64,000 bases of DNA from Candidatus Shapirobacteria bacterium (lineage in GTDB: Bacteria; Patescibacteriota; Microgenomatia; UBA12405), in NCBI GenBank assembly GCA_030698565.1, contig JAUYJS010000003.1, positions 12,187 to 76,186 of the forward strand. Reading direction: 5' to 3'. Below the pieces are notes generated by a model, which saw only the letters and a program-made list of their open reading frames with translations, was not told the origin of the DNA and ran no database searches. A program made the translations under genes and the position numbers. Every line of letters begins with the position of its first letter. The stretch's first letter is position 1. Of this stretch, positions 1 through 63,576 are shown one piece after another.

Positions 1-458
1 TTTTTAGAATTAATATCGTCTAAAATAGAAGCCACTGTAGTCGATTTTCCATGTCCGGTTGGACCAGTCACCAGTACAAAGCCTTGTTTGTAATTAGCAA
101 AAGAACGGAATAGATCCGGAAACCCTAAATCTTCAAAACTAGGTATTTCCGAATTTACAATTCTCAAGGCACAAGCAATCTTTCCTTTTTGAAAATACAA
201 ATTACCCCTAAATCTAGACTTAGTGGTTGACAAAGAAAAATCCAACTCTCTTTCTAGAAAAACTTTCTGTTTTTGTTCCTCGCTTATAATAGAAAAAATC
301 ATTTCTTCTATAAGATGGTCACTTAATGCTCCAAAACTTGATACCTCCGCCAATTCTCCATTTACCCGAATCTTTGGTGTCATCCCCATCATCAAATGCA
401 AATCTGAGGCCTTATTTACAACCGCCAGATCAAGTAGTTCCTGTATTTTAGTATTCAT
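1..458 (-). CDS. pilT: Type IV pilus retraction ATPase PilT, N-terminal part (C-terminus runs off the window start)
   Basis: The reverse-complement translation begins MNTKIQELLDLAVVNKASDLHLMMGMTPKIRVNG and ends with a Walker A motif, GFVLVTGPTGHGKSTT. This is the typical PilT N-terminus. The start codon is at 458-456. Confidence 0.8.
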   Translation of the reverse strand, partial: MNTKIQELLDLAVVNKASDLHLMMGMTPKIRVNGELAEVSSFGALSDHLIEEMIFSIISEEQKQKVFLERELDFSLSTTKSRFRGNLYFQKGKIACALRIVNSEIPSFEDLGFPDLFRSFANYKQGFVLVTGPTGHGKSTTVASILDDINSK

Positions 459-467
459 ATATTTATA

Positions 468-2210
468 TTAATATTGAGCTACTCTCAACACCTCCTCGGC
501 TGTTGTTGTTCCCTCTAAAACCTTAACGTAACCATCCTGCTTCATTGTCAACATGCCTCCTGCCATGGCTTCCTTTTGAATATCTGATGCCACCACTTTT
601 TCCAAAATTAATTTACTGATTTTTTCGGAAATAGTCATCACCTCATAAATAGCAACTCTATTGAAATACCCCGTGTTACTACATTTGTCACAACCAACAA
701 TTTTGGGAATCATAACTTTTTTGCCTTCCTTTTTAAAACGATCTTCTATTGTAGAATACACCGGTCCCAATGTTGTTTTAAATTCAGCCTCTATGTCAGC
801 CGGGATTTCAATTTGAGTAACACAGCTTTGACACACCCTCCGCAAAACTCTTTGGGCCACCACACAAGTCAAAGACGAAACCAATAAAAACGGTTCTACA
901 CCCATATCCAACATTCTTGGCGGTACCCCAGCCGCATCGTTCGTATGCAAAGTAGAAAACACCAAATGCCCTGTTAAAGAAGCATTAATCGCCAATTCTG
1001 CCGTTTCCGTATCCCGAACCTCTCCCACCATAATTACATTTGGATCTTGTCTCAAAAAAGATCTTAATGCCGAAGCAAAAGTTAATCCAGCTTGTGGGTT
1101 AACTTGAACCTGGTTAACCCCTTTCATTTGATATTCCACCGGGTCTTCGATGGTCACCACATTGACTTTTGATGTTGCCACAATATCCAACAAAGAATAA
1201 AGTGTAGTTGTCTTTCCTGAACCGGTTGGACCACACACAATAATAATTCCATGAGGTCGCTCTACCGAATTCATTAAATTTTTATAAGCCAAACCTTTCA
1301 AACCCAAATCTTGAAGTGTCGGTACTTTTTGCGATTTTTTTAATAAACGCATAACCACCTTTTCACCATAAGTCGTCGGCAAAGTTGATACCCGCAAATC
1401 CACGTCATTATTATCAGCTGAAATAAAAAATCTTCCGTCTTGAGGTACTCTTTTTTCGTCAATTTTTAAATTTGACAATATTTTGATTCTCGAAACCAAC
1501 GCCTCATGAATTGATCGGGAAATTACATAAACTTCCTGTAAAATACCGTCTATTCTGTATCTTATTCTCACGTTTTCTTCCAATGGTTCGATATGAATAT
1601 CTGAAGCTCTGGATTTAACTGCGAATTCCAAAATACTTCTAATAATTTTGGCTATATGAGATTCAGATGAAACTGCTTGGGAAAAAGTGTTCGTTTCTTT
1701 TTCGTCATCCTTTTTTCTTTCACTTACCGCCTTAGTTACCTCAGAAGTTATGTTCTTTTCTCTCTCGTATTTTTCCTCAATAAATCCAACAATCTGCTTT
1801 TCAGTTGATATGGCCGTTTTTATTTTAAGATTTGTTTTCTTTTCCAAAAACTCAACAGTTTCCAAATCCAAAGGATTTACCATAGTCACATACAATATTT
1901 TTTCTTTGGTATTCAACTGATAGGGAACTATTTTATATTTCTCAGCTACGCTTTGGGGAACCAAAGTCAAGGCTTCCGGAGCAAAACCAATTTTCTCCAA
2001 ATCGACAAAGGGGACACTTAAAAAAACAGATTTTGTTGTAGCTAGCTGTTCCTCTGACAACAAATTCATCGATCTGACGATTTCTTCCTCAGATTCACCG
2101 GTTTTTAAATGCCGTAAATTAATTTCCTCGTATTTGGCCTCATCTACCAACCCTTTTTCTTTTAAAACATCCCGCAAATTCTTGTATATTTTTTGGGTAG
2201 GATCGTTCAT
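468..2210 (-). CDS. pilB: Type IV pilus assembly ATPase PilB/GspE family
   Basis: It has a GspE_N-like N-terminal domain, the Walker A motif VCGPTGSGKTTT and a C-terminal tetracysteine motif (CQSC...CDKC). It lies immediately upstream of pilT. Confidence 0.85.
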   Translation of the reverse strand: MNDPTQKIYKNLRDVLKEKGLVDEAKYEEINLRHLKTGESEEEIVRSMNLLSEEQLATTKSVFLSVPFVDLEKIGFAPEALTLVPQSVAEKYKIVPYQLNTKEKILYVTMVNPLDLETVEFLEKKTNLKIKTAISTEKQIVGFIEEKYEREKNITSEVTKAVSERKKDDEKETNTFSQAVSSESHIAKIIRSILEFAVKSRASDIHIEPLEENVRIRYRIDGILQEVYVISRSIHEALVSRIKILSNLKIDEKRVPQDGRFFISADNNDVDLRVSTLPTTYGEKVVMRLLKKSQKVPTLQDLGLKGLAYKNLMNSVERPHGIIIVCGPTGSGKTTTLYSLLDIVATSKVNVVTIEDPVEYQMKGVNQVQVNPQAGLTFASALRSFLRQDPNVIMVGEVRDTETAELAINASLTGHLVFSTLHTNDAAGVPPRMLDMGVEPFLLVSSLTCVVAQRVLRRVCQSCVTQIEIPADIEAEFKTTLGPVYSTIEDRFKKEGKKVMIPKIVGCDKCSNTGYFNRVAIYEVMTISEKISKLILEKVVASDIQKEAMAGGMLTMKQDGYVKVLEGTTTAEEVLRVAQY

Positions 2211-2256: not shown

Positions 2257-2886
2257 ATGTTTCCATCAACTATAATTATCGGTTCCAAACCAAAAACTAC
2301 CGATTCTAAGATCAAAGAATTATGTCTATCACTCGACCATAATTCTTTAGCCAACAACCCTGACTTAATTTTGATTAATTCAGAATCAGGGTGGGGGATA
2401 GACCAAGTAAGAACCTTAAAAAAATTCTTTTCTCAAAAACCCTTTAATCACCAAAATAAAATTATTATTATTCAGGACGCCCACAATCTCAACGCTGAAG
2501 CTCAAAACGCTCTTTTAAAAATATTAGAAGAACCGGGACCAAATCATTATATTTTTTTAATCACCAATCAACCTTTTTACTTACTTCCCACCATTCTTTC
2601 TCGCTGTCAAACTATTAGGCTTACCTCAAACTTTATTTCCGAATCAAAGGTAATCAGCCCGACTAACGATTTAAATAAAAACCTAAAATTATCAGAAGAA
2701 ATCGGCCAAAACAAAGAAGACATCTTGCCGTTTTTAGAAGAGCAAATTGTTTTACACCAAAAATTATTAGTCGAAAAACCATCAATCAAAGTTTCCACGG
2801 ACATTCAAAAAATTATCAAATCAATTCAGATGATCAAAGCCAACGTCGATCCCAAGTCCGCCCTGGATTATTATTTCTTAGCCTAA
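2257..2886 (+). CDS. holB: DNA polymerase III delta-prime subunit (short form)
   Basis: The LLKILEEPGPNHYIFLIT and ILSRCQ motifs match the clamp-loader delta-prime AAA+ core. Confidence 0.65.
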   Translation: MFPSTIIIGSKPKTTDSKIKELCLSLDHNSLANNPDLILINSESGWGIDQVRTLKKFFSQKPFNHQNKIIIIQDAHNLNAEAQNALLKILEEPGPNHYIFLITNQPFYLLPTILSRCQTIRLTSNFISESKVISPTNDLNKNLKLSEEIGQNKEDILPFLEEQIVLHQKLLVEKPSIKVSTDIQKIIKSIQMIKANVDPKSALDYYFLA

Positions 2887-2892
2887 ACAAAT

Positions 2893-3010
2893 TTGTCATT
2901 CCGAGCAAAATCGAAGGATCAACAAGTTTGTCATTCTGAACGAAGTGAAGAATCTAGCGAAGCGTCAATAAGTTGTCATTCCGAGCGAAGTGGAGGAATC
3001 TAGCGAGCGA
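2893..3010. repeat. Three tandem imperfect copies of a short hairpin-forming repeat (tTGTCATTCCGAGCrAArTcGAAGGATCtag), MITE-like
   Basis: The copies are at 2893-2920, 2927-2964 and 2972-3010. Inverted copies occur at 3310-3348 and a solo copy at 7661-7696. Confidence 0.7.
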
Positions 3011-3030
3011 AACGAGCGTAAACTAAGTTA

Positions 3031-3321
3031 ATGAGCAGAAAATATTTTGTTTATATTTTGACCAATTATAAAAATAGTATTTTATATATCGGCATTACAA
3101 ATAGTTTAGAAAGAAGAGTTTTTGAACATAAAAATCACCTAAACCCAGACTCGTTTACGGCTAAATATCGGTTATATAAATTAATTTGGTTTCAAGAATT
3201 TGAAGATGTTCGTGATGCGATATTGGTTGAAAAAAAGATTAAAGGATGGAATAGAAATAAAAAAATAAACTTAATTAAAGAAATGAATATAAATTTTATA
3301 GATTTGTTTACGCTTCGCTAG
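3031..3321 (+). CDS. GIY-YIG nuclease family protein (small, stand-alone)
   Basis: The N-terminus, YFVYILTNYKNSILYIGITNSLERRVFEHK, is a canonical GIY-YIG motif. The gene is flanked by inverted repeats. Confidence 0.75.
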   Translation: MSRKYFVYILTNYKNSILYIGITNSLERRVFEHKNHLNPDSFTAKYRLYKLIWFQEFEDVRDAILVEKKIKGWNRNKKINLIKEMNINFIDLFTLR

Positions 3322-3348
3322 ATCCTTCGTTGTACTCAGGATGACAAT
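3310..3348. repeat. Inverted copy of the 2893-3010 repeat, overlapping the GIY-YIG stop codon
   Basis: The sequence acgcttcgctagatccttcgttgtactcaggatgacaat is the reverse complement of the upstream repeat consensus. Confidence 0.65.
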
Positions 3349-3407
3349 GTGGCATTAACCGCAGATTAACCTAATTAAACGTTTAAAAGATGTTATAATA
3401 AACTCAG

Positions 3408-4541
3408 ATGTTTTCACCTGTCTTTTCCATCAATAATCGAATCCTAAAAAATATTGGCACTATCGAAGCCGCCAAAGCTGTCATCGACGAAGCCCCTCTA
3501 ATTCCAGCCTACGAAAAACAATTCCAACAAGAAGCTATGGTTAGGACTGTCCATTTCGGTACCAGAATTGAAGGAAATGATTTAACTTTCCAAGAAGTCG
3601 CCAAATTAGTCGAAGGCCGACAGATCACTGCCACCGAAAGGGATATTCAAGAAGTGATAAATTATCGCAATGTTATGTCGTATTTAGAGGAACTTTGGTC
3701 TCTTTTTGATGCTGGTATGCCACTGCCTGACGAAAAAACTGCTCCAAATTTTGATGACACCAACCATCGACCTTTCTTTTATAGCGAGGTTATTTTCAAA
3801 AGGATTCACGAACTAACCACCACCAAAGTAATACCCATGTCAGAAATAGGTCAATATCGTCATCAACAGGTGGTTTTGAAAAACACCCGCACTGGTGAAA
3901 TTGCCCACCGCCCACCGCCCGCCATCGAAGTCCCATATCTTGTGGCCGATTTTGTCGATTGGCTCAATACCCCAGAATCCAAAGAAATACATCCGGCCAT
4001 TAGATCGGCAATTTGTCAATATATTTTAGTGGCCATTCATCCTTTTATCGAAGGCAATGGTCGTGTCTCTCGGGCTTTTGCCATATTACCCTTATACGTT
4101 GAAGGTTTCGATATCCGTCGTCTTTTTTCCCTAGAAGAATATTTCGATCGCAACGCCGAAACTTATTACAATACCATTCAACAGACTCATGAAAAATCTT
4201 CCGATATTTTCAAACGCGATCTAACTCTGTGGATTGAATATTTTACCGAAGCTCTTAGTATTGAATTAAATCGAGTCAAAGAAAAAGTCCAATCACTCTC
4301 ACGCGATATTAAACTCAAACAAAAACTTGGCGGTAAACAAATTCAATTAACCGAAAGACAAATTAAATTAGTTGAATATATGCAACAGTTTGGCGGTCTT
4401 CGCATGCCCGACGCCCAACAACTCATACCCATGGTTTCAGATGACACCATTTGGCGCGATCTCAAAAAATTAGTCGACTGCGGTGCTGTTGAAAAGCGTG
4501 GTTCTACCAAAGGCGCATTCTATTGTCTAACTGATGTTTAA
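3408..4541 (+). CDS. Fic/DOC family protein (AMPylation/filamentation domain) with a C-terminal winged-helix-like tail
   Basis: It carries the Fic motif HPFIEGNGRVSRAF. Its DNA is visibly GC-richer than the flanking sequence. Confidence 0.8.
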   Translation: MFSPVFSINNRILKNIGTIEAAKAVIDEAPLIPAYEKQFQQEAMVRTVHFGTRIEGNDLTFQEVAKLVEGRQITATERDIQEVINYRNVMSYLEELWSLFDAGMPLPDEKTAPNFDDTNHRPFFYSEVIFKRIHELTTTKVIPMSEIGQYRHQQVVLKNTRTGEIAHRPPPAIEVPYLVADFVDWLNTPESKEIHPAIRSAICQYILVAIHPFIEGNGRVSRAFAILPLYVEGFDIRRLFSLEEYFDRNAETYYNTIQQTHEKSSDIFKRDLTLWIEYFTEALSIELNRVKEKVQSLSRDIKLKQKLGGKQIQLTERQIKLVEYMQQFGGLRMPDAQQLIPMVSDDTIWRDLKKLVDCGAVEKRGSTKGAFYCLTDV

Positions 4542-4558
4542 ACAAACCTTCCTTTATT

Positions 4559-4996
4559 TTAAACCCTTTGTCCCTTCGGGACATTTCCCTTAAAAAGGGA
4601 AACTTTTCTTTGTTGAATAAATTCAATTATCCGATCTTTTACCTTACTTAAATTATTTAAAACATCCTCATTTAGGATTCTTAAAGTTTCTATATTTAGA
4701 TTTCTCATAAATTTATCTCTTTCAAAATCTAAATATTTTCTTTGGTTATGATAACCGCCATCAATCTCAATCGCTAACAACAATTCCTTACAATAAAAAT
4801 CTAAAATAAATCTGTTTATTGGTTTTTGTCGCAAAAATTTAAAACCAGTTTTCTTGTCTTTTAAAATTTCATACCAAACGGTATTTTCTGTTCTAGTCGA
4901 ACCTTTTCTATTACTTCTTGATAAATTTTTTAATTCTTCCAAATATTTTAAATGACCCCTTCTAGCAACCAACTTAGATTCATAAATGTTATACAT
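4559..4996 (-). CDS. DUF559 / very-short-patch-repair-like endonuclease domain protein
   Basis: The FILDFYCKELLLAIEIDGGYHNQ core is typical of DUF559 (restriction-endonuclease-like fold). Confidence 0.65.
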   Translation of the reverse strand: MYNIYESKLVARRGHLKYLEELKNLSRSNRKGSTRTENTVWYEILKDKKTGFKFLRQKPINRFILDFYCKELLLAIEIDGGYHNQRKYLDFERDKFMRNLNIETLRILNEDVLNNLSKVKDRIIEFIQQRKVSLFKGNVPKGQRV

Positions 4997-5017
4997 AATA
5001 CATAAATCTTACAACAG

Positions 5018-5112
5018 CCTCCCTTTTTAAGGGAGGTGATCCCGCAACTGCGGGATCGGTGGGTTTAAAAATAAGATTATCATTGTTAAACCCACGGTCC
5101 TCTTTTAGAGGA
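5018..5112. promoter_or_regulatory. Cluster of four consecutive perfect stem-loops in the divergent intergenic region upstream of ligA
   Basis: The stem-loops are cctccctttttaagggagg, gatcccgcaactgcgggatc, gtgggtttaa...ttaaacccac and cctcttttagagg. Confidence 0.4.
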
Positions 5113-5144
5113 AGGAGATTAGAGGGATTAAGCTATAATAATTT

Positions 5145-7106
5145 ATGATCACCCTCGACAAACTCGATCTACAAAAAATGTCTCCCGAGGAAATGGGCGA
5201 ACTTTTGGTCGAAGCCAAAAAGGCTTACTACATAACTAGTAAACCAATAATGGACGATCATACTTACGATACATTAGAGGAAATTTTACGTCAAAAAAGT
5301 CCTTATCATCGGCTTTTTAGTAAAGTCGGCAATCAGAATTTTGATACCGGATTCAATAAAAAAAAGCACACCATGCCTATGGGTTCTCAAAACAAAGTAA
5401 ATATCTACACTGATTTAATTCATTACTTCGAACTCAAGCAAAAGGCTGCAGGCGACATTGATATGAACAGTATTTCTTACGTTGTTCAACCCAAATGCGA
5501 TGGTATTTCTTTGGAAATTGAATATAAAAATGGTCAATTAGTCGACGCCATTACTCGTGGTGATGGGGAAATAGGAGACGTGATTACCCAAAATGTCGTT
5601 AAAATGAAAAATTTTGTCCCAGAAATTAAAGATGATTTTACCGGCTCCGTCCGCTGTGAAATTGTCATGACATTTGAAAATTTTAAAAAAATAAACGACC
5701 TACAAAACATTTATTCCAACCCTCGCAACGCCGCCTCTGGTATATCTCAACGTCTCGACAGTAAATATTCCGAATATTGTAGTCTCTATGCTGTCGATAT
5801 TTATTCATATAATGTACGGGCGATTCACGAATCGCCCTTTTCATCTGAAATTCAAAAAATTGAATATTTAAAAAAACACAATTTTGTTACTGTCGATACT
5901 CTCTGTTGTCCAAAAATTAACGAAGTAGAGCCGATCTATCAAAAATATTTAACCGAAGATCGCAGAGCGTATCCTTTTGAAATCGACGGTTTGGTTATCA
6001 AAATAAACGATCTTGATTTGCAAAGAAAACTTGGTTTTCATAATAACCGGCCCAAAGGTCAAGTTGCCTACAAATTTCCCTCAAAAACCAACCAAACTAG
6101 AATTTTATCGGTTAACTGGCAAGTCGGTCCGATGGGGACTATCACACCCGTTGCCCAAGTTGAACCGATTGAAATTTCTGGTGCTGTTATTACATTTGCA
6201 TCGCTCGCCAATTACCAACTTATCAAAGATAAAAATATAAATGTGGGAGATGTAGTTGAAGTCAGCCGCCGGGGAGATGTTATTCCTCACATCGACAAAG
6301 TAATTACTAAAGTCAACGAAGGTCATTTTTTAGCACCAACACTCTGTCCCTCATGCGACACCAAACTTATTTTGGAAGATAAATTTTTGCGTTGTCCCAA
6401 TATTTCTAGTTGTCCAGCTCAAATTTTTGGAAGTCTCAAATTATTTTGTGACGCCCTCGATATTAAAGGCATTTCCGATAAAACCATAGAAAAACTTTAC
6501 CAAGCTAGTCGTGTTCGTTTGCCAGGCGATTTTTATAAATTAAAAATTTCTGATTTTGAAGATTTAGCTGGCTTGGGAACCAAATCGGGAACCAATATTG
6601 TCAAACAAATTCAGGACAAAAAAACCTTAAATCTAAAACAAGTACTAGGTGCCGCCATTATTCCAAATTTTAGCAACGCTCGGATTCAACAGATTATTAA
6701 TGCTGGCTTTGACACTCCCGATAAAATCTTAAATATTACCACAGACCAATTAGAAAACCTGCCGGGAGTTAAACAAACATTGGCTCAAAAAATTTATCAA
6801 GGCATTCAGTCGCGTAAAAATTTTATCGAATCAATACTTGCTCAAGTTAGCATAAAGAAAATTAGCCAATCTCAAAAATTAGCCAACCAAACTTTCGTAA
6901 TAACTGGAAGCCTAGATCATCCTCGTGAGGAAATCATAAATGAAATCGAATCACTCGGCGGCAAAGTTGTTTCAACCGTCAGCCAAAATACTTCTTATCT
7001 TATTACCAACGAAACCAACTCCAATTCTTCCAAATTTGTCACCGCTCAAAAATTAGGAACCAAGATAATCAATGAAGCTGAATTCTATGATTTAATTAAC
7101 CAATGA
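5145..7106 (+). CDS. ligA: NAD-dependent DNA ligase
   Basis: It has the adenylation motif KCDG (VQPKCDGISLEIEY), zinc-finger cysteines, HhH and a C-terminal BRCT-like region, in 653 aa. Confidence 0.9.
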   Translation: MITLDKLDLQKMSPEEMGELLVEAKKAYYITSKPIMDDHTYDTLEEILRQKSPYHRLFSKVGNQNFDTGFNKKKHTMPMGSQNKVNIYTDLIHYFELKQKAAGDIDMNSISYVVQPKCDGISLEIEYKNGQLVDAITRGDGEIGDVITQNVVKMKNFVPEIKDDFTGSVRCEIVMTFENFKKINDLQNIYSNPRNAASGISQRLDSKYSEYCSLYAVDIYSYNVRAIHESPFSSEIQKIEYLKKHNFVTVDTLCCPKINEVEPIYQKYLTEDRRAYPFEIDGLVIKINDLDLQRKLGFHNNRPKGQVAYKFPSKTNQTRILSVNWQVGPMGTITPVAQVEPIEISGAVITFASLANYQLIKDKNINVGDVVEVSRRGDVIPHIDKVITKVNEGHFLAPTLCPSCDTKLILEDKFLRCPNISSCPAQIFGSLKLFCDALDIKGISDKTIEKLYQASRVRLPGDFYKLKISDFEDLAGLGTKSGTNIVKQIQDKKTLNLKQVLGAAIIPNFSNARIQQIINAGFDTPDKILNITTDQLENLPGVKQTLAQKIYQGIQSRKNFIESILAQVSIKKISQSQKLANQTFVITGSLDHPREEIINEIESLGGKVVSTVSQNTSYLITNETNSNSSKFVTAQKLGTKIINEAEFYDLINQ

Positions 7107-7660: not shown

Positions 7661-7696
7661 ATCATCCTGAGCGAGTGAAACGAGTTGAAGGATCTG
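7661..7696. repeat. Solo copy of the GTCATCCTGAGCG...GAAGGATC hairpin repeat family
   Basis: atcatcctgagcgagtgaaacgagttgaaggatctga shares its ends with the 2893-3010 and 3310-3348 repeats. Confidence 0.6.
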
Positions 7697-7709
7697 ATAT
7701 TATCTCTTT

Positions 7710-33315: not shown

Positions 33316-34389
33316 TTAATATTTATTTATTATTTTTTTGTATCGTGTCGTTGATCCTTGACCAATCCGTTCTATCATCTTTAATTCCAACAGCTTATTT
33401 ATCACCTGATTAATAGTCGGTCTGGGTACACCTGTTTTCTGCGATATTTCTCTCGGTGTAGTTTGGTCAACATTTTTCATATAATTCCACACGATAAGTT
33501 GTTGTGGCGAAAGTATTGTTTCAATGTTTGTTTGAGTAAGTAATTGAATGGCCATTTGAGATTGTGTCAGTAATATATCTAAAAAGAAATTAACCCAAGG
33601 TGACATATCAATGTGTTTAGTTCTTAAAGTCTTTTGACTTTTACGAAGGGCTAAATAATATTCTGGTTTATTATCTTCAATCAACTTTTCGTGTGATACA
33701 TAAGGCATATAGGCATAACCAAACTTAAGTAATAGAAGATTGGTTAATATTCTTGATAATCTGCCGTTTCCATCCTCAAACGGATGGATATTGAGAAATT
33801 CGACAAGAAAATTAGCGATCACTAGAAGTGGATGATATTTATTTTGTTCTAAGGCATTTTTAGTCCAATCTACAAGTTCAGACATTTCCTTGGGTGTTAA
33901 AAAGGCCTTGGTGGTTTCAAAAAGAACCTCGATTGGTTTACCTTTATCATCTATCATTACTACTGTATTTTCTTTTTTCTTATATTCACCCCGATGTAAG
34001 ACATCTTTTCCAACATATTTTAATAACTCTTTATGAAAATGTTTAATGATATTTTCATTAAATACCAATGACTCCCAAGAATTAAAGACATTTTGAAGTA
34101 ACTCATAATAACCCTGAACTTCCTGTTCATCTCGATTACTAAATTTTTGAATAGATATACCCCGAATCATTTTTTCAATCTCTTCATCAGACAATTTTGA
34201 TCCTTCAATACGAGTGGAAGCCCCAGTTGAAGTGACTAATACTGATTGTTTTAATCGACCTAAAATTTGAGGACTAAGTTTAGTACTCCCTTCCCAGTTT
34301 CCCTTAATAGACTCAATTTGGGTAATTTTTAACCAAATGTCAGAAGAAATATTTTCTAATCGAAAATCGAATTTATTATTCATATACAT
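33316..34389 (-). CDS. Fic/DOC family protein (second paralog) with a C-terminal HTH-like domain
   Basis: It carries the Fic motif HPFEDGNGRLSRIL. It lies directly 3' of tRNA-His. Confidence 0.8.
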   Translation of the reverse strand: MYMNNKFDFRLENISSDIWLKITQIESIKGNWEGSTKLSPQILGRLKQSVLVTSTGASTRIEGSKLSDEEIEKMIRGISIQKFSNRDEQEVQGYYELLQNVFNSWESLVFNENIIKHFHKELLKYVGKDVLHRGEYKKKENTVVMIDDKGKPIEVLFETTKAFLTPKEMSELVDWTKNALEQNKYHPLLVIANFLVEFLNIHPFEDGNGRLSRILTNLLLLKFGYAYMPYVSHEKLIEDNKPEYYLALRKSQKTLRTKHIDMSPWVNFFLDILLTQSQMAIQLLTQTNIETILSPQQLIVWNYMKNVDQTTPREISQKTGVPRPTINQVINKLLELKMIERIGQGSTTRYKKIINKY

Positions 34390-36832: not shown

Positions 36833-36847
36833 CTACTAAACACGTCA

Positions 36848-37609
36848 TTGCGATCTCGATTTATCGAGAGAAGCAATCTCTCTATGCCAACACTCAACCC
36901 TAACATCGCTATTCTCGAATTTTATCCCGGTCCCGGTGGCCAAGAGGCCACTATTTGGGCTGGTGATCTAATAAATATGTATACCCGCTATGCTACTAAA
37001 GTCGGCTGGAAAGTAAGTTTAATTGATGAACATATTATGAAAATAACCGGGTTTGATGTTTTCAATCAGTTAAAACATGAAACCGGTACTCATCGGGTCC
37101 AAAGAATCCCTATAACCGAAAAACGCGGCCGAATTCAAACTTCCACCGCTTCTATTGCCATCATGCCTCAAATCGATTCCAAAGAAGTTAATTTTAGGAT
37201 GGAAGATGTTACCATCACTGCTTGTCGAGCTGGTGGCAATGGCGGCCAAAATGTTAATAAGGTTTCTACTGCCGTTCACTTAGTTCATAAACCAACTGGT
37301 TTAATGTTTGATGTTAGAACCGAACGTTCCCAGCAACAAAATCGAGAAATTGCCATTGATCTTCTTAAGAATAAACTTTGGCAAATAGAAGAAGAAAAGC
37401 GCCAATCCGAAGTCTCTTCTGGTCGTTCCAATATTAGTCAATCAACCCGCGCCGACAAAATCCGTACTTACAATTATCCCAGAAATCAGGTCAAAGACCA
37501 CCGCATTGACGTATCATTCAACAATTTAGATAAAATCATGCAAGGCGAGTTAGATGATCTTTTATTAGAATTAACTATTCTCCCTTCTCCATCTTCACAC
37601 TCAAACTAA
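36848..37609 (+). CDS. prfA: Class I peptide chain release factor, RF1-type (PxT-like PIT motif, GGQ), lacking N-terminal domain 1
   Basis: It has [25 protein letters not shown] and [17 protein letters not shown]. The likely ATG is at 36884. Only about 15 nt separate it from rpmE, so there is no room for domain 1. Confidence 0.7.
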
Positions 37610-46528: not shown

Positions 46529-46556
46529 GTAGAGACGCGCTGCAGCGCGTCTCTAC
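46529..46556. repeat. REP family B palindrome (GTAGAGACGCGCTGCAGCGCGTCTCTAC)
   Basis: It is a perfect 28-nt palindrome. Together with about 35 nt of 3' flank it is nearly identical to 63577-63638. Confidence 0.8.
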
Positions 46557-54996: not shown

Positions 54997-55683
54997 TACG
55001 GGCGATTCATGAATCGCCCCTACATTTAAAATTTTTCGGATTATTTCTATCTCTTTCCCACATTATCGGATTCATTCTTATATATTCTCTAATTTTTTTT
55101 AACTCAATTTCGTTTCTAACGATATGTTCATAATAATTCCGTTGCCAAACAAACATTCCAATCTCTCTAGATGCATTCATTTTCAAATATCCGATAATTT
55201 TTGACAACATCGATCTCTTCGGTAGGGGCGATTCATGAATCGCCCTGTTTAATTTCCTAATTGATCCATTTATCAATTTGGGCGATTCATGAATCGCCCC
55301 TACATTTTTTATTATTAAAATTAAATGAATATGATTGGGCATTATCTGAAAAATATCCATTACCAAATCAAATCTTGCCTCTAATTTTATTAACCAATTT
55401 TCAATTATTAAACCATTATTATTCGAGATCATCTTGCCATTAATAATGGCACCAAACATTTGCCTTCTTTCAAATGAACATATGGTTATAAAATAATATC
55501 CTCCGCCTGAATAATTCCATTTTTTTAACCGGATTGACCTACGGTGATAATCCATATGTAATAATTATTACATATTATTATTTGTACGGGCGATTCATGA
55601 ATCGCCCCTACCCGTCATCCCGAATTTATTTCGGGATCTAAATCCCGCATTCCTTTTTTGGGCGATTCATGAATCGCCCCTAC
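54997..55683. repeat. Five copies of REP family A surrounding and inside RAYT gene 1
   Basis: The copies are at 54997-55023, 55222-55247, 55279-55303, 55585-55612 and 55659-55683. Each contains GGGCGATTCATGAATCGCCC. Confidence 0.8.
55007..55555 (-). CDS. REP-associated tyrosine transposase (RAYT, IS200/IS605-like HUH), copy 1, with REP-A sequences translated in frame
   Basis: It has YYFITICSFERRQMFG (motif I), MPNHIHLIL (HUH) and WQRNYYEHIVRNEIELKKIREYIRMNP (catalytic Tyr region). GAIHESP occurs twice, and the C-terminal CRGDS is encoded by REP-A copies. Confidence 0.75.
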   Translation of the reverse strand: MDYHRRSIRLKKWNYSGGGYYFITICSFERRQMFGAIINGKMISNNNGLIIENWLIKLEARFDLVMDIFQIMPNHIHLILIIKNVGAIHESPKLINGSIRKLNRAIHESPLPKRSMLSKIIGYLKMNASREIGMFVWQRNYYEHIVRNEIELKKIREYIRMNPIMWERDRNNPKNFKCRGDS

Positions 55684-62919: not shown

Positions 62920-63576
62920 TTAATAACAAACATCTTTCTGCCAATTTTTGGGATTATTATCAATATATTGTTTAATCGCCCAATATTCCTTTTCTGTCCG
63001 GATAATCCGATCATAATATCGGGCTTGCCAGGTGAAAAATAACTGGTGACGGTTACATTCTGATTTGACCGCCGCCTTAAATAATTTAATTGTATTGGGA
63101 ATAATTTGCCTTGATTTAAATCCATTTTCCCGTAGAGACGCACTGTGTGCGTCTCTTTTCAATTCCCGATTATTTTGGTTTATCGGTTTGATTTGATTGA
63201 TGATTGGGGAATTTGTTTTGAGACGCATACAATGCGTCTCTACAATGGGTTGATTTTTAATTTCCATTATCAAATGCACATGATTGGGCATAATCACCCA
63301 ATCATCTATTTTAATATTTTTCCTAATTTCCGAGGTTTTTAATAATTCCTGTTTAGCAATTTCTCCCGCCTTGGACAATTTCATTTGACCATCAACAATT
63401 TTTCCCAAGAATTTATTTTTATTATGGGTACAAATGGTAATAAAATAAAACCCTGATTGAGAATAATTCCAATTTAATAACCTCGCCGATTTCACTCGAA
63501 ATTTATCCGCAAACAAATCTGGGTTATCAACAAACATTACATTAATTGTAATATTTATTGCATTAATATGTTGCAT
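62920..63576 (-). CDS. REP-associated tyrosine transposase (RAYT), copy 2, cognate to REP family B
   Basis: It has FYFITICTHNKNKFLG, MPNHVHLIM and WQARYYDRIIRTEKEYWAIKQYIDNNP. ETHCMRL and RDAHSASLRENG are in-frame translations of REP-B copies. Confidence 0.75.
   Translation of the reverse strand: MQHINAINITINVMFVDNPDLFADKFRVKSARLLNWNYSQSGFYFITICTHNKNKFLGKIVDGQMKLSKAGEIAKQELLKTSEIRKNIKIDDWVIMPNHVHLIMEIKNQPIVETHCMRLKTNSPIINQIKPINQNNRELKRDAHSASLRENGFKSRQIIPNTIKLFKAAVKSECNRHQLFFTWQARYYDRIIRTEKEYWAIKQYIDNNPKNWQKDVCY

What the first reader, a model, noticed from the sequence alone, without database searches (positions are those of the whole stretch)
2886..5115. GIY-YIG / Fic / DUF559 islet bounded by hairpin repeats; the Fic gene is compositionally foreign
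Three selfish or defence-type genes lie between holB and ligA. They are a stand-alone GIY-YIG nuclease, a Fic AMPylase-family protein (HPFIEGNGR) and a DUF559 endonuclease-domain protein.

The left boundary is three tandem copies of a hairpin repeat (TGTCATTCCGAGC....GAAGGATC). Its inverted copy overlaps the GIY-YIG stop codon, so the GIY-YIG ORF sits inside terminal inverted repeats like a miniature mobile element. The right boundary is a cluster of four perfect stem-loops (5018-5112).

The Fic ORF is visibly GC-richer (roughly 40-45%) than the surrounding sequence (about 30%), consistent with horizontal acquisition.
Basis: partly seen in the sequence, partly recalled or inferred. Interest (0 to 1): 0.55.

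Follow-up and report, generated by a model that had tools for sequence, protein, structure and literature searches.

The report
Two nuclease cassettes flanking resident Fic
The "islet" is a conserved resident Fic gene of a Shapirobacteria (CPR) genome with a small repeat-flanked nuclease cassette on each side: an Ssn-type GIY-YIG with its hairpin repeats, absent from close relatives, and a DUF559 endonuclease with its own hairpin-bearing inverted repeats, a pairing I found no description of.

Summary
The observations hold. Pfam confirms GIY-YIG, Fic and DUF559. There are three tandem GTCAT units plus an inverted copy over the GIY-YIG stop codon, and four strong stem-loops at 5018-5112.

The single-islet reading with a foreign Fic does not hold.
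- **Fic is the resident.** Two close relatives carry holB-Fic-ligA with a 100% identical Fic protein and neither nuclease. Eight relatives keep Fic at this site. Fic is 83-87% identical where LigA is only 62-71%.
- **GIY-YIG cassette (2886-3351).** This is a clean 466-bp gain. Its anatomy matches the Ssn/SRM system (Chenal 2025): a single-domain GIY-YIG ssDNA nuclease flanked by inverted GTCAT...ATCYAG hairpins. The hairpin here is a variant that the published search pattern misses. In 79 homologous loci these hairpins are 25-fold enriched next to the gene, covary, and also occur as gene-less doublets.
- **DUF559 cassette (4541-5142).** It has its own inverted repeats, each with two hairpins. 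The "four stem-loops" are one of these ends plus extras. DUF559 homologs occupy the same Fic|ligA site in three other lineages. Flanking inverted repeats recur in 37 of 67 metagenomic DUF559 loci. I found no description of this pairing.

The parts
2257..2886 (+). holB (DNA polymerase III delta'), left anchor gene
   Evidence: PF13177, E 4e-30. The pilB-holB-Fic order is kept in relatives.
2886..3351 (+). Whole GIY-YIG (Ssn-type) cassette: three left hairpin units, the gene, and one inverted right unit. It is a 466-bp segment absent from close relatives.
   Evidence: blastn alignments to L005/L006 stop at 2885 and resume at 3352. The empty site reads gcctag|cattaaccgcag. The 55-nt holB-Fic spacer is also intact in the more distant L086, L089 and L090, so the empty state is ancestral.
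2886..2920 (+). Left unit 1, degenerate: AACAAATTT + GTCATTCCGAGCAAAATCGAAGGATC
   Evidence: D1, D2. Its stem is imperfect (ATTCC against AGGAT), read directly from the sequence.
2921..2965 (+). Left unit 2: GTCATTCTGAACGAAGTGAAGAATC + TAGCGAAGCG. The stem is ATTCT/AGAAT.
2966..3023 (+). Left unit 3, the gene-proximal left end: GTCATTCCGAGCGAAGTGGAGGAATC + TAGCGAGCGAAACGAGCGTAAAC, ending 7 nt before the ATG.
   Evidence: The same block order is seen upstream of homologs in 48 of 78 loci.
3031..3321 (+). Single-domain GIY-YIG nuclease, 96 aa, Ssn-like. GC 24.7%.
   Evidence: PF01541 covers residues 4-80. Y8, Y19, R29 and E67 are conserved. The closest homologs end in the same ...TLR* tail, which is encoded by the right repeat.
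3304..3347 (-). Right end: an inverted unit (GTCATCCTGAGTACAACGAAGGATCTAGCGAAGCGTAAAC on the minus strand) that contains the stop codon.
   Evidence: (I1)
3352..3407 (+). Native holB-Fic spacer with a conserved promoter-like TGTTATAAT. The insertion leaves it intact.
   Evidence: Alignment of spacers in L005/6, L086, L088 and L089/90.
3408..4541 (+). Resident SoFic-like Fic protein (HPFIEGNGR; an N-terminal TRIEGN stretch that resembles an inhibitory-helix motif; a weak C-terminal HTH match).
   Evidence: Pfam. PADLOC SoFic model, E 5e-44, full length. Synteny in L005/6 and L086-L093. 83-87% identity where LigA is 62-71%.
4541..5142 (-). Whole DUF559 cassette: a 602-bp segment that replaces a 13-nt Fic-ligA spacer in the closest relatives.
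   Evidence: blastn breakpoints at 4540 and 5143. Spacers of L005/6 and L089/90.
4557..4602 (-). Inverted-repeat end at the 3' end of DUF559: outer TTTTAAACCC, hairpin TGTCCCTTCGGGACA, hairpin TTTCCCTTAAAAAGGGAAA. It encodes the C-terminal SLFKG tail.
   Evidence: The SLFKG tail is conserved in homologs.
4559..4996 (-). DUF559 (Vsr-like PD-(D/E)xK) endonuclease-domain protein, 145 aa. GC 26.7%.
   Evidence: PF04480, E 2e-24. PDB 3HRL, E 2e-13. Homologs at 67-75% identity occupy the same site in L091-L093.
5018..5071 (-). Inverted-repeat end upstream of DUF559: hairpin CCTCCCTTTTTAAGGGAGG, hairpin GATCCCGCAACTGCGGGATC, outer GGTGGGTTTAAAAA.
   Evidence: (I3)
5059..5112 (.). Extra stems: a long stem made by an inverted second copy of the outer TTAAACCCAC segment (5059-5095), and a small hairpin CCTCTTTTAGAGG (5098-5112).
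   Evidence: (I25)
5145..7106 (+). ligA, right anchor gene
   Evidence: synteny

Best explanation
The region is a composite. The native arrangement in this Candidatus Shapirobacteria lineage is pilB-holB-Fic-ligA-pth. Fic is a strongly conserved, vertically inherited SoFic-type gene. A small nuclease cassette sits on each side of it, and each carries its own inverted repeats.

1. **Left cassette, 2886-3351.** This is an Ssn-type unit: a 96-aa single-domain GIY-YIG nuclease between inverted copies of a GTCAT-stem-loop-stem-ATCTAG hairpin motif (an SRM/NTS-like repeat).
   - By analogy with the four Ssn enzymes characterised by Chenal et al. 2025, the protein should bind the motif only as a single-stranded DNA hairpin and cut a few nucleotides 5' of it. 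This step is inferred, not shown here.
   - The left repeat also supplies the sequence just upstream of the start codon, including a -10-like GCGTAAA/TATAAT block. The right repeat supplies the last codons and the stop.
   - The cassette behaves as a discrete, duplicating unit. How it copies itself is not known.

2. **Right cassette, 4541-5142.** This is a DUF559 (Vsr-like PD-(D/E)xK) gene between roughly 50-nt inverted repeats. Each repeat consists of an outer TTTAAACCC segment, a variable GC-rich hairpin and a conserved CCCTT...AAGGG hairpin.
   - The most likely reading is a selfish, site-preferring nuclease cassette that is gained and lost at the Fic|ligA junction. This is inferred.

The elevated GC of Fic reflects a very conserved protein (GC1 of 53%) sitting between two AT-rich newcomers. 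It does not indicate foreign origin.
For: Composite nature:
- L005 and L006 are 97-98% identical on the holB side. They carry a 100% identical Fic protein and lack both cassettes, with sharp breakpoints at 2885/3352 and 4540/5143.
- Outgroups L086, L089 and L090 keep the same 55-nt holB-Fic spacer, so the GIY-YIG cassette is a gain.

Fic residency:
- More than 120 homolog clusters at 81-98% identity; all named ones are Shapirobacteria, Woesebacteria or Patescibacteria.
- Fic sits at the same site in eight relatives.
- Fic is 83-87% identical where LigA is 62-71%.
- Its GC3 equals that of its neighbours.

Ssn reading:
- The published NTS is CGTCATTCCCGCG-MAV-GCGGGAATCYRG, and the gene architecture is NTS-ssnA-NTS around a 94-aa single-domain GIY-YIG. 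Window unit 3 is TGTCATTCC-GAGCGAAGTGGA-GGAATCTAG.
- In 79 homolog loci from many phyla, structured units occur at 3.9 per kb within 250 nt of the gene against 0.16 per kb elsewhere. A left unit is present in 48 of 78 loci, a right unit in 47 of 76, and both in 40.
- 73% of GTCATNNNGA cores have the exact complement within 80 nt.
- Covariation: 92.9% of cells paired against 78.5% in shuffles (0 of 500 shuffles reach it), and 57 double changes against 17.8.
- 51 gene-less left-plus-right unit pairings (some nested or overlapping) were found, mostly 60-140 bp.
- Paralogous cassettes in one genome have unrelated flanks.

DUF559 reading:
- The mirror-image flank architecture is kept in L091-L093.
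- The flank inverted-repeat score exceeds the control 95th percentile in 37 of 67 metagenomic loci (Mann-Whitney p = 2e-10). Hairpins occur at 5.96 per kb near gene ends against 1.10 per kb elsewhere.
- Carriers are scattered among non-carriers on the Fic/LigA identity matrix.
Against: - No biochemical data exist for this protein.
- Direct homology to N. meningitidis SsnA or to CDD family cd10448 could not be tested.
- The published degenerate SRM pattern matches none of the window units, none of 250 structured units, and only 1 of 79 loci.
- No target-site duplication is visible at the GIY-YIG cassette junctions.
- A hydrolytic GIY-YIG nuclease is not a known transposase, so the copying mechanism is unexplained.
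- Within this 64-kb window the motif is barely dispersed. Beyond the units at the gene itself there are only two solo structured units (36844, 55614) and one degenerate unit (7661).
- For DUF559 the polarity is unresolved: it could be ancestral with repeated losses. Only 4 of 30 loci show further copies of its inverted repeat.
- Fic does have the most deviant codon usage of the 25 long ORFs, so an ancient transfer into the ancestor of the clade is not excluded.
Confidence: 0.75

Rival explanations
1. One reading: one three-gene selfish or defence islet, bounded by hairpin repeats on the left and four stem-loops on the right, acquired horizontally, with Fic as the compositionally foreign cargo.
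For: - Fic has the highest GC of the full-length ORFs (40.9%, z = +1.8) and the most deviant codon usage of 25 long ORFs.
- Fic matches the SoFic defence model in PADLOC.
- Repeats lie at both outer edges of the region.
Against: - Close relatives carry Fic alone at the same site, with an identical protein and only synonymous changes within the ORF.
- Fic is syntenic in eight relatives and more conserved than LigA.
- Its homologs are lineage-typical.
- The left and right repeats are unrelated. Each pairs with a partner on the other side of its own small gene.
Confidence: 0.03
2. The GTCAT hairpins and the GIY-YIG gene are a domesticated host system rather than a currently mobile element. As in Neisseria, this could be ssDNA restriction that modulates uptake and recombination of DNA. 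On this view the 466-bp difference arose by recombination or transformation between strains, not by element-driven movement.
For: - In N. meningitidis, SsnA restricts transformation at NTS sites, and its authors propose domestication.
- The cassette sits next to a type IV pilus / T2SSE gene cluster.
- There is no target-site duplication and no known transposase chemistry.
- The left repeat seems to carry promoter-like sequence and the right repeat the stop codon, so the repeats are also ordinary expression signals.
Against: - In this window the motif is essentially confined to the gene's own flanks. A genome-wide restriction role therefore has few targets in the 64 kb seen.
- Multiple diverged cassette copies occur in single genomes with unrelated flanks.
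- Many gene-less doublets and tandem partial duplications at the ends fit self-propagation.
Confidence: 0.2
3. DUF559 is an old vertical resident of the Fic|ligA gap that has been lost several times. Its flanking inverted repeats are bidirectional terminators and promoters, or the arms of a programmed inversion, not ends of a mobile unit.
For: - The same site and orientation are seen in four diverged lineages.
- The hairpins lie between convergent genes where terminators are expected, and two were called terminator-like.
- The loop of the start-proximal hairpin often reads TTGACA.
- Few extra copies of the repeat were seen elsewhere.
Against: - The closest relatives, with an identical Fic protein, lack the whole 602 bp including both repeat ends.
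- L092 carries it while its near relatives L088 and L089 (Fic 94% identical) do not.
- DUF559 similarity (window closest to L092) disagrees with Fic similarity (window closest to L091).
- The repeats include non-palindromic outer segments in mirror orientation, and one repeat encodes the protein's C-terminus across very different lineages. Terminators do not require either feature.
Confidence: 0.3

Closest known systems
Ssn nucleases with SRM/NTS repeats (Chenal et al., Nat Commun 2025, PMC11893778)
   Same: - A 94-96-aa single-domain GIY-YIG protein.
- The gene is flanked 5' and 3' by inverted copies of an oriented hairpin repeat.
- Shared outer blocks: GTCAT before the stem and ATC-YAG after it. 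These correspond to the positions the paper found critical, namely the three nucleotides before the palindrome for cutting and the C right after it for binding.
- The loop is tolerant of insertions.
   Different: - The hairpin is a variant: a 5-bp A/T-rich covarying stem, tandem G.A, a 2-bp stem and a GNA triloop or inserted apical hairpin. It is not matched by the published degenerate pattern.
- The repeat extends inward by a CTAGCG-nn-AGCGTAAA block that holds the stop codon.
- The organism is a CPR bacterium.
- The motif is barely dispersed in the 64 kb seen.
- A filled/empty polymorphism is documented here, whereas the paper only hypothesised IS-like behaviour.
REP/REPIN elements with RAYT transposases, and IS200/IS605 (own knowledge; also cited in PMC11893778 and PMC3116915)
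   Same: - A single small nuclease gene is flanked by inverted hairpin repeats.
- Gene-less hairpin doublets occur.
- Recognition of ssDNA hairpins is expected.
- The same window also holds two RAYT-like genes with their own REP hairpins.
   Different: RAYT and TnpA are HUH Y1 enzymes that form covalent intermediates and can rejoin DNA. GIY-YIG and PD-(D/E)xK nucleases are hydrolytic, so any copying must rely on host repair or replication.
SoFic / class II Fic AMPylases (PADLOC model SoFic; PDB 3EQX, 3ZCN)
   Same: - A canonical HPFx(D/E)GN(G/K)R motif.
- An N-terminal stretch (TRIEGN) resembling an inhibitory-helix motif.
- A weak C-terminal HTH match (DeoR-like, below the Pfam cut-off).
- A full-length match to the SoFic model, E 5e-44.
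   Different: - It scores far below the NCBIfam equivalog cut-off (51 against 550 bits).
- The first motif position is G rather than S/T.
- Here it is a core-like, syntenic gene, more conserved than LigA, not a mobile defence gene.
Vsr-like homing endonucleases such as I-Bth0305I (PMC3239194, PMC2677866), and the DUF559 structure 3HRL
   Same: - The PD-(D/E)xK Vsr-like fold family, grouped with DUF559 in PMC3424549.
- Small size.
- Patchy, same-site occupancy reminiscent of a homing cycle.
- A weak PADLOC hit to a homing endonuclease model.
   Different: - It is free-standing in an intergenic gap, not in an intron or intein.
- It is flanked by hairpin-bearing inverted repeats, one of which encodes its C-terminus.
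- No target cleavage is known.
Free-standing GIY-YIG homing endonucleases (I-TevI, Seg proteins; own knowledge)
   Same: A GIY-YIG catalytic core and selfish behaviour. NCBIfam gives a weak hit to the group I intron endonuclease model (24.6 bits against a cut-off of 56).
   Different: Those enzymes carry a separate DNA-binding domain and cut dsDNA targets. This protein is the catalytic domain only.

Membership tests
Ssn (GIY-YIG cd10448) site-specific ssDNA nucleases | Single-domain GIY-YIG protein of about 94 aa with no extra DNA-binding domain | tested here: met
   The protein is 96 aa. PF01541 covers residues 4-80, and the only other Pfam match is the overlapping T5orf172.
Ssn (GIY-YIG cd10448) site-specific ssDNA nucleases | Conserved catalytic tyrosines and the metal-binding glutamate (Y6, Y17 and E64 in N. 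meningitidis SsnA) | tested here: met
   Y8, Y19, R29 and E67 are invariant or nearly so in a 34-sequence alignment. Correspondence to the Neisseria residues is by position in the GIY-YIG motif and is inferred.
Ssn (GIY-YIG cd10448) site-specific ssDNA nucleases | Assignment to CDD cd10448, or E < 1e-10 to N. meningitidis SsnA (NMV_0044) | not testable with these tools
   No CDD library is available, and no SsnA sequence is held (no PDB relative; no supplements held).
Ssn (GIY-YIG cd10448) site-specific ssDNA nucleases | Oriented hairpin repeats (SRM) in both flanks of the gene, in inverted orientation | tested here: met
   Units at 2930 and 2975 (+) and at 3345 (-). The same layout is found in 40 of 79 homolog loci under a strict criterion.
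Ssn (GIY-YIG cd10448) site-specific ssDNA nucleases | Repeat matches the published degenerate SRM pattern HGTCWYN(0-2)YYVSBRHN(0-5)WNVSBRGN(0-2)RNCYNB | tested here: not met
   There are 0 hits in the window, 0 of 250 structured units and 1 of 79 loci. The pattern does match the canonical NTS. The window units share only the outer GTCAT / stem / ATC-YAG blocks.
Ssn (GIY-YIG cd10448) site-specific ssDNA nucleases | Repeat forms a hairpin | tested here: met
   Covariation on 42 units chosen without requiring pairing: 92.9% of cells paired against 78.5% in shuffles (0 of 500 reach it). Five of seven pairs show double changes. Slid controls give 13-49%. Single-unit folding energy is not significant.
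Ssn (GIY-YIG cd10448) site-specific ssDNA nucleases | Binds and cuts only ssDNA, a few nucleotides 5' of the motif | not testable with these tools
   This needs biochemistry.
Insertion sequence / MITE-type mobile element (GIY-YIG cassette) | Terminal inverted repeats and a discrete filled/empty polymorphism | tested here: met
   Inverted repeats (I1). The 466-bp segment is absent from L005/L006 and from outgroups, with sharp ends.
Insertion sequence / MITE-type mobile element (GIY-YIG cassette) | Target-site duplication | tested here: not met
   The junctions read gcctaa|acaaattt ... aatgtgg|cattaacc, against the empty site gcctag|cattaacc. No duplicated target is seen.
Insertion sequence / MITE-type mobile element (GIY-YIG cassette) | Several copies per genome and non-autonomous derivatives | tested here: inconclusive
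   In this window there is only one gene copy, with two solo structured units. In other genomes, paralogous cassettes of 373-410 bp have unrelated flanks, and 51 gene-less unit pairings (some nested) were found.
Horizontally acquired (foreign) Fic gene | Compositional deviation from the host genome | tested here: inconclusive
   GC is at z = +1.8 and codon-usage distance is the highest of 25 long ORFs. However, GC3 is 35.2%, like holB (34.8%) and pilB (33.9%). The excess lies in GC1 (53%).
Horizontally acquired (foreign) Fic gene | Absent from, or differently placed in, related genomes; nearest homologs in other taxa | tested here: not met
   Fic is present at the same site in L005, L006 and L086-L093. 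Named homologs are all Shapirobacteria, Woesebacteria or Patescibacteria.
Fic AMPylase, class II (SoFic-like) | Active-site motif HPFx(D/E)GN(G/K)R | tested here: met
   HPFIEGNGR is read in the translation. The Pfam Fic domain is confirmed.
Fic AMPylase, class II (SoFic-like) | Inhibitory-helix motif (S/T)xxxE(G/N) N-terminal to the core | tested here: inconclusive
   The sequence reads GTRIEGN: the glutamate and G/N are present, but the first position is G. The paralog at 33316-34389 has STRIEGS. The motif definition comes from my own knowledge.
DUF559 (PF04480) Vsr-like endonuclease domain | Full-length match to the family model | tested here: met
   PF04480, E 2e-24, model positions 3-108 of 109. 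3HRL, E 2e-13.

The most novel reading that the evidence does not exclude
DUF559 endonuclease genes with their hairpin-bearing inverted repeats may be a second, undescribed nuclease-repeat partnership. It would parallel Ssn/SRM and RAYT/REP but be built on a PD-(D/E)xK fold. The cassette would cycle in and out of a preferred intergenic site (here Fic|ligA) in a homing-like way.

Separately, the window-versus-L005/L006 comparison would be the first natural filled/empty evidence that an SRM-ssn-SRM unit moves as a block. The authors of the Ssn paper only hypothesised this.
Probability: 0.35. Interest if true: 0.65.

Novelty: new member of a known kind. Interest (0 to 1): 0.42.

Why it matters
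- **Reinterpretation.** An apparent three-gene defence islet is really a core gene with a repeat-flanked nuclease cassette on each side. It also shows that a raised GC content can mark the most conserved gene rather than the foreign one.
- **Ssn family.** The result extends this 2025 family of site-specific ssDNA nucleases, which is of biotechnological interest, to CPR bacteria and to a hairpin variant that the published search pattern misses. More enzyme-motif pairs are therefore likely to exist than were counted.
- **Mobility.** The clean filled/empty pair bears on the open question of whether NTS-ssnA-NTS units are mobile.
- **DUF559.** A recurring inverted-repeat architecture around this large uncharacterised family suggests these nucleases also act on their own flanking hairpins. 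That idea is directly testable.

Tried and rejected
- **Rfam.** Both the gathering-threshold scan and the permissive scan over 2700-5300 found no family for the repeats. The only hit was a chance CRISPR-DR58 match at E 1.4.
- **Folding of single units.** Energies are not better than shuffled sequence, so thermodynamics alone does not support the 'hairpin repeat'. Covariation does.
- **Promoter/terminator scan.** The counts are no higher than in shuffled sequence.
- **Broad GIY-YIG alignment (A1).** It was too diverse for the locus search, so a closer set (A2) was used.
- **Published SRM pattern.** No hits. I checked that my implementation matches the canonical NTS.
- **Literature searches.** Searches for GIY-YIG with REPIN, MITE, REP-associated or YhbQ, and for the repeat sequence itself, found nothing relevant. 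The Ssn paper surfaced only. Searches on DUF559, Vsr-like and COG2852 found no description of the flanking repeats.
- **PDB.** No relative was found for the GIY-YIG protein.
- **Supplements.** None are held for the Ssn paper.
- **Other copies in fetched data.** tblastn found no further DUF559 or Fic copies in the GIY-YIG loci, and no second GIY-YIG or DUF559 in the window.
- **Technical failures.** A fuzzy-regex scan for extra DUF559 repeat copies timed out and was redone with blastn-short.
- **Assembly breaks.** Short-read contigs of the same genome break at 2927-2955 and 4570-4590. I considered this as evidence of dispersal and rejected it as too weak, because palindromes and strain variation also break assemblies.

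Full report
**What is there**

The window is AT-rich (34.5% GC). The exact GIY-YIG and DUF559 proteins are recorded from a Candidatus Shapirobacteria MAG, a CPR bacterium, on a 186,566-bp contig. Pfam confirms the following genes:
- holB at 2257-2886
- a 96-aa GIY-YIG protein at 3031-3321
- a 377-aa Fic protein at 3408-4541, carrying HPFIEGNGR
- a 145-aa DUF559 protein at 4559-4996 on the minus strand
- ligA at 5145-7106

A type IV pilus / T2SSE cluster lies upstream of holB.

- Three direct GTCAT units lie at 2886-3023.
- An inverted copy at 3304-3347 covers the TAG stop codon.
- The 17-mer occurs three times against 0.04 expected.
- Four stem-loops at 5018-5112 fold far better than shuffled sequence, z = -7.
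- Two further stem-loops at 4569-4602 lie at the other end of the DUF559 gene and overlap its last codons.

**The islet is not one unit**

Looking up the exact Fic protein returned two contigs from other samples, L005 and L006.
- They are 97-98% identical to the window on the holB side and 91.7% on the ligA side.
- They read holB-Fic-ligA, with no GIY-YIG gene and no DUF559 gene.
- blastn alignments stop at window position 2885 and resume at 3352. They stop again at 4540 and resume at 5143.
- The GIY-YIG segment is therefore a clean 466-bp difference placed directly after the holB stop codon. The empty site reads gcctag|cattaaccgcag.
- The DUF559 segment is 602 bp and replaces a 13-nt spacer.
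- The Fic proteins are 100% identical although the aligned DNA differs at 38 of 1189 positions. Every change inside the ORF is therefore synonymous.

**Fic is the resident, not the foreigner**

- Fic homologs are numerous and very similar: more than 120 clusters at 81-98% identity. Every named one comes from Shapirobacteria, Woesebacteria or Patescibacteria.
- In more distant relatives the order pilB-holB-Fic-...-ligA-pth is kept.
  - L089 and L090 have Fic directly before ligA.
  - L086 and L087 have four other genes in between.
  - L088 has an abhydrolase after Fic and a beta-CASP gene before it.
- The 55-nt holB-Fic spacer, with a conserved TGTTATAAT, is intact in L005/6, L086 and L089/90. 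The empty state is therefore ancestral and the GIY-YIG cassette is a gain.
- Fic is 83-87% identical between lineages whose LigA is only 62-71% identical.
- Composition:
  - Fic is 40.9% GC, z = +1.8 among 63 ORFs.
  - It has the most deviant codon usage of 25 long ORFs.
  - Its GC3 (35.2%) equals that of holB and pilB. The excess sits in GC1 (53%).
  - The GIY-YIG and DUF559 ORFs are the two lowest-GC ORFs in the window (24.7% and 26.7%).
  - The visible contrast therefore comes mostly from two AT-rich newcomers beside a very conserved gene.
- Fic matches the PADLOC SoFic model over its full length (E 5e-44). It scores far below the NCBIfam equivalog cut-off. It is a SoFic-like class II Fic protein that behaves like a core gene here.

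**The GIY-YIG cassette is an Ssn-type unit**

A scan of one genome per species with an alignment of the closest homologs returned 79 loci. They come from Patescibacteria, Bacteroidales, Clostridia, Chloroflexi, Ignavibacteriales, Fibrobacter and other groups.

The same anatomy recurs in these loci:
- Upstream: GTCAT, a three-base variable stem segment, GA, a GNA triloop or an inserted hairpin, GA, the complementary segment, ATCTAGCG, a few bases, AGCGTAAA(T), then the ATG about ten bases later.
- Downstream: the mirror image, which in the closest subfamily encodes the last residues (...TLR) and the stop codon.

Quantitatively:
- Structured units occur at 3.9 per kb within 250 nt of the gene, against 0.16 per kb elsewhere in the same loci.
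- A correctly oriented left unit is present in 48 of 78 loci, a right unit in 47 of 76, and both in 40.
- 73% of all GTCATNNNGA cores have the exact complement of the stem within 80 nt, most often at a spacing of exactly 24.
- On 42 distinct units chosen without requiring complementarity, 92.9% of cells pair, against 78.5% in shuffles. No shuffle of 500 reaches the observed value.
- Those units show 57 double changes against 17.8 expected. Slid controls give 13-49% pairing.
- Two central positions are G.A and A.G in about three quarters of units. This suggests tandem sheared pairs below a GNA triloop. The structural reading is my own inference.

A literature search found the matching system in Chenal et al. 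2025 (PMC11893778).
- They describe Ssn, a family of about 94-aa single-domain GIY-YIG proteins (CDD cd10448).
- The genes are flanked on both sides by an oriented hairpin repeat. In Neisseria this is NTS, CGTCATTCCCGCGMAVGCGGGAATCYRG; more generally it is called SRM.
- Four purified homologs bind the repeat only as ssDNA and cut a few nucleotides upstream.
- In N. meningitidis this restricts transformation.
- The three bases before the palindrome matter most for cutting, and the C after it matters most for binding.

Window unit 3 (TGTCATTCC...GGAATCTAG) keeps exactly these outer blocks. The published degenerate SRM pattern, however, matches none of the window units, none of 250 structured units and only 1 of 79 loci. 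It does match the canonical NTS. This subfamily therefore uses a variant hairpin. Membership in cd10448 and similarity to Neisseria SsnA could not be tested with the tools at hand.

**Does the cassette move?**

The Ssn authors note that NTS-ssnA-NTS looks like an insertion sequence, but they show no mobility. The evidence gathered here is as follows.
- There is a filled/empty pair with an ancestral empty state.
- Cassette paralogs within single MAGs have similarity confined to 373-410 bp and unrelated flanks: L021/L023 at 86%, L027/L037 at 89% and L066/L075 at 81%.
- 51 gene-less pairings of a left and a right unit were found, some nested or overlapping, mostly 60-140 bp. Some look like exact deletions of the gene, for example ...AGCGTAAAAT|ATTTACGCT... 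in L013.
- Tandem partial duplications of the outermost half-unit are frequent, as in the window's own three left units and in L010, L035, L019, L026 and L009.
- Against mobility: no target-site duplication is seen, and a hydrolytic nuclease cannot rejoin DNA by itself.
- In this window the motif is barely dispersed. There are five structured units against 0.08 expected. Three are at the gene, and two are diverged solo units at 36844 and 55614.

**The DUF559 cassette**

The four stem-loops belong to a second, unrelated structure. Read in the DUF559 orientation:
- The upstream flank is TTTAAACCCAC, then a GC-rich hairpin (GATCCCGCAGTTGCGGGATC), then CCTCCCTTAAAAAGGGAGG, then about 20 nt, then the ATG.
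- The 3' end is the mirror image: TTTCCCTTTTTAAGGGAAA, then TGTCCCGAAGGGACA, then AAGGGTTTAAAA.
- The 3' conserved hairpin lies inside the coding sequence, giving the C-terminal SLFKG.

Three other lineages (L091, L092, L093) carry a DUF559 homolog at the same place, between Fic and ligA and convergent with Fic, with the same flank architecture.
- Their Fic is 84-87% identical to the window's, and their DUF559 67-75%.
- Carriers are scattered. The window's nearest relatives lack the cassette. L092 has it, while L088 and L089 (Fic 94% identical to L092) do not.
- DUF559 similarity does not track Fic similarity.

In 80 metagenomic DUF559 loci:
- The upstream flank and the 3' end form an inverted repeat scoring above the control 95th percentile in 37 of 67 usable loci (Mann-Whitney p = 2e-10).
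- Perfect hairpins occur at 5.96 per kb near gene ends against 1.10 per kb elsewhere.
- The repeats are 25-94 nt long. In most loci they end within about 30 nt before the start codon and begin 30-67 nt before the stop codon.
- The loop of the start-proximal hairpin often reads TTGACA.
- Extra copies elsewhere in the locus were seen in only 4 of 30 loci.

I found no paper describing this pairing. [quoted passage not shown] That enrichment would follow from such inverted repeats. The polarity of the DUF559 difference (gain or loss) is unresolved.

**Verdict**

The observations are confirmed. It is wrong on two points: the three genes are not one islet, and Fic is not foreign. The GIY-YIG part is a new member of the recently described Ssn/SRM kind, with a variant hairpin. 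The Fic part is ordinary. The DUF559 part is the least explained and carries most of the remaining novelty.

Noticed in passing
window 55007-55555 (-) and 62920-63576 (-); hairpins at 46529, 46592, 55000, 55226, 55280, 55588, 55660, 63134, 63220, 63576: There are two RAYT-like (REP-associated tyrosine transposase) ORFs. Each matches NF047646 at 50-56 bits, below the cut-off of 80. Each sits among its own perfect palindromes, GGGCGATTCATGAATCGCCC and GTAGAGACGCGCTGCAGCGCGTCTCTAC. Two copies lie inside the first RAYT ORF itself, read as ...VGAIHESP...RAIHESPL....
   Followed up: partly
window 5815-5840, inside ligA: A REP-type hairpin (GGGCGATTCACGAATCGCCC) sits in frame inside the essential ligA gene, read as VRAIHESPF. 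The close relatives L005/L006 have a different hairpin (GGGGCGCGGCGTGACGCGCCC, read as VGARRDAPF) at the same place and of the same length. L086 and L089 lack it, and L093 has yet another insert there.
   Followed up: partly
window 36844-36878 (+), 55614-55640 (+), 7661-7698 (+): There are solo SRM-like hairpin units of other subtypes away from the GIY-YIG gene. They are GTCATTGCGA...AGCAATC, GTCATCCCGAATTTATTTCGGGATCTAA (between two REPs next to the RAYT gene), and a degenerate ATCATCCTGAGC...GAAGGATC upstream of pth.
   Followed up: partly
window 33316-34389 (-): A second Fic paralog of 357 aa, with a canonical STRIEGS inhibitory-type motif and HPFEDGNGR. It has ordinary GC (31.5%) and ordinary codon usage, and is 26% identical to the first Fic.
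   Followed up: partly
window 3408-4541 versus L086-L093: Fic is more conserved across this clade (83-87% identity) than the essential LigA (62-71%). That is unusual for a gene of a family often regarded as accessory or defence-related.
   Followed up: partly
L086 6124-8634; L088 3220-4704 and 6127-6765: The gaps on either side of Fic are hot spots for variable cargo in relatives. L086 has an NTP-transferase, a NUDIX protein and two unknown genes. L088 has an abhydrolase after Fic and a beta-CASP gene between holB and Fic.
   Followed up: no
L010 4770-4960, L035 3015-3060, L019 4868-4915, L026 4787-4830, L009 5285-5410: The outermost half of the GTCAT unit plus about 10 flanking bases is often tandemly duplicated several times at the cassette edge. 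This mirrors the window's three left units. The pattern would fit repeated cutting just outside the motif followed by slipped repair, but this is speculation.
   Followed up: no
L032 4928-5373 versus L036 4928-5373: Between two Bacteroidales species the GIY-YIG cassette is 94.8% identical, while the flanking chromosome is only 81-85% identical. This suggests recent exchange or strong constraint on the cassette.
   Followed up: no
window 2927-2955 and 4570-4590: Short-read (Logan) contigs of the same genome end or start exactly inside the GTCAT units and inside the DUF559 3' hairpins. This is compatible with repeats or palindromes breaking the assembly graph.
   Followed up: no
window 1-2210 and L002 1-9954: A complete type IV pilus-like cluster (two T2SSE ATPases, T2SSF, prepilin peptidase and many N-methyl pilins) lies directly upstream of holB. 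It is of possible interest because Ssn restricts incoming ssDNA in Neisseria. No link was tested.
   Followed up: no
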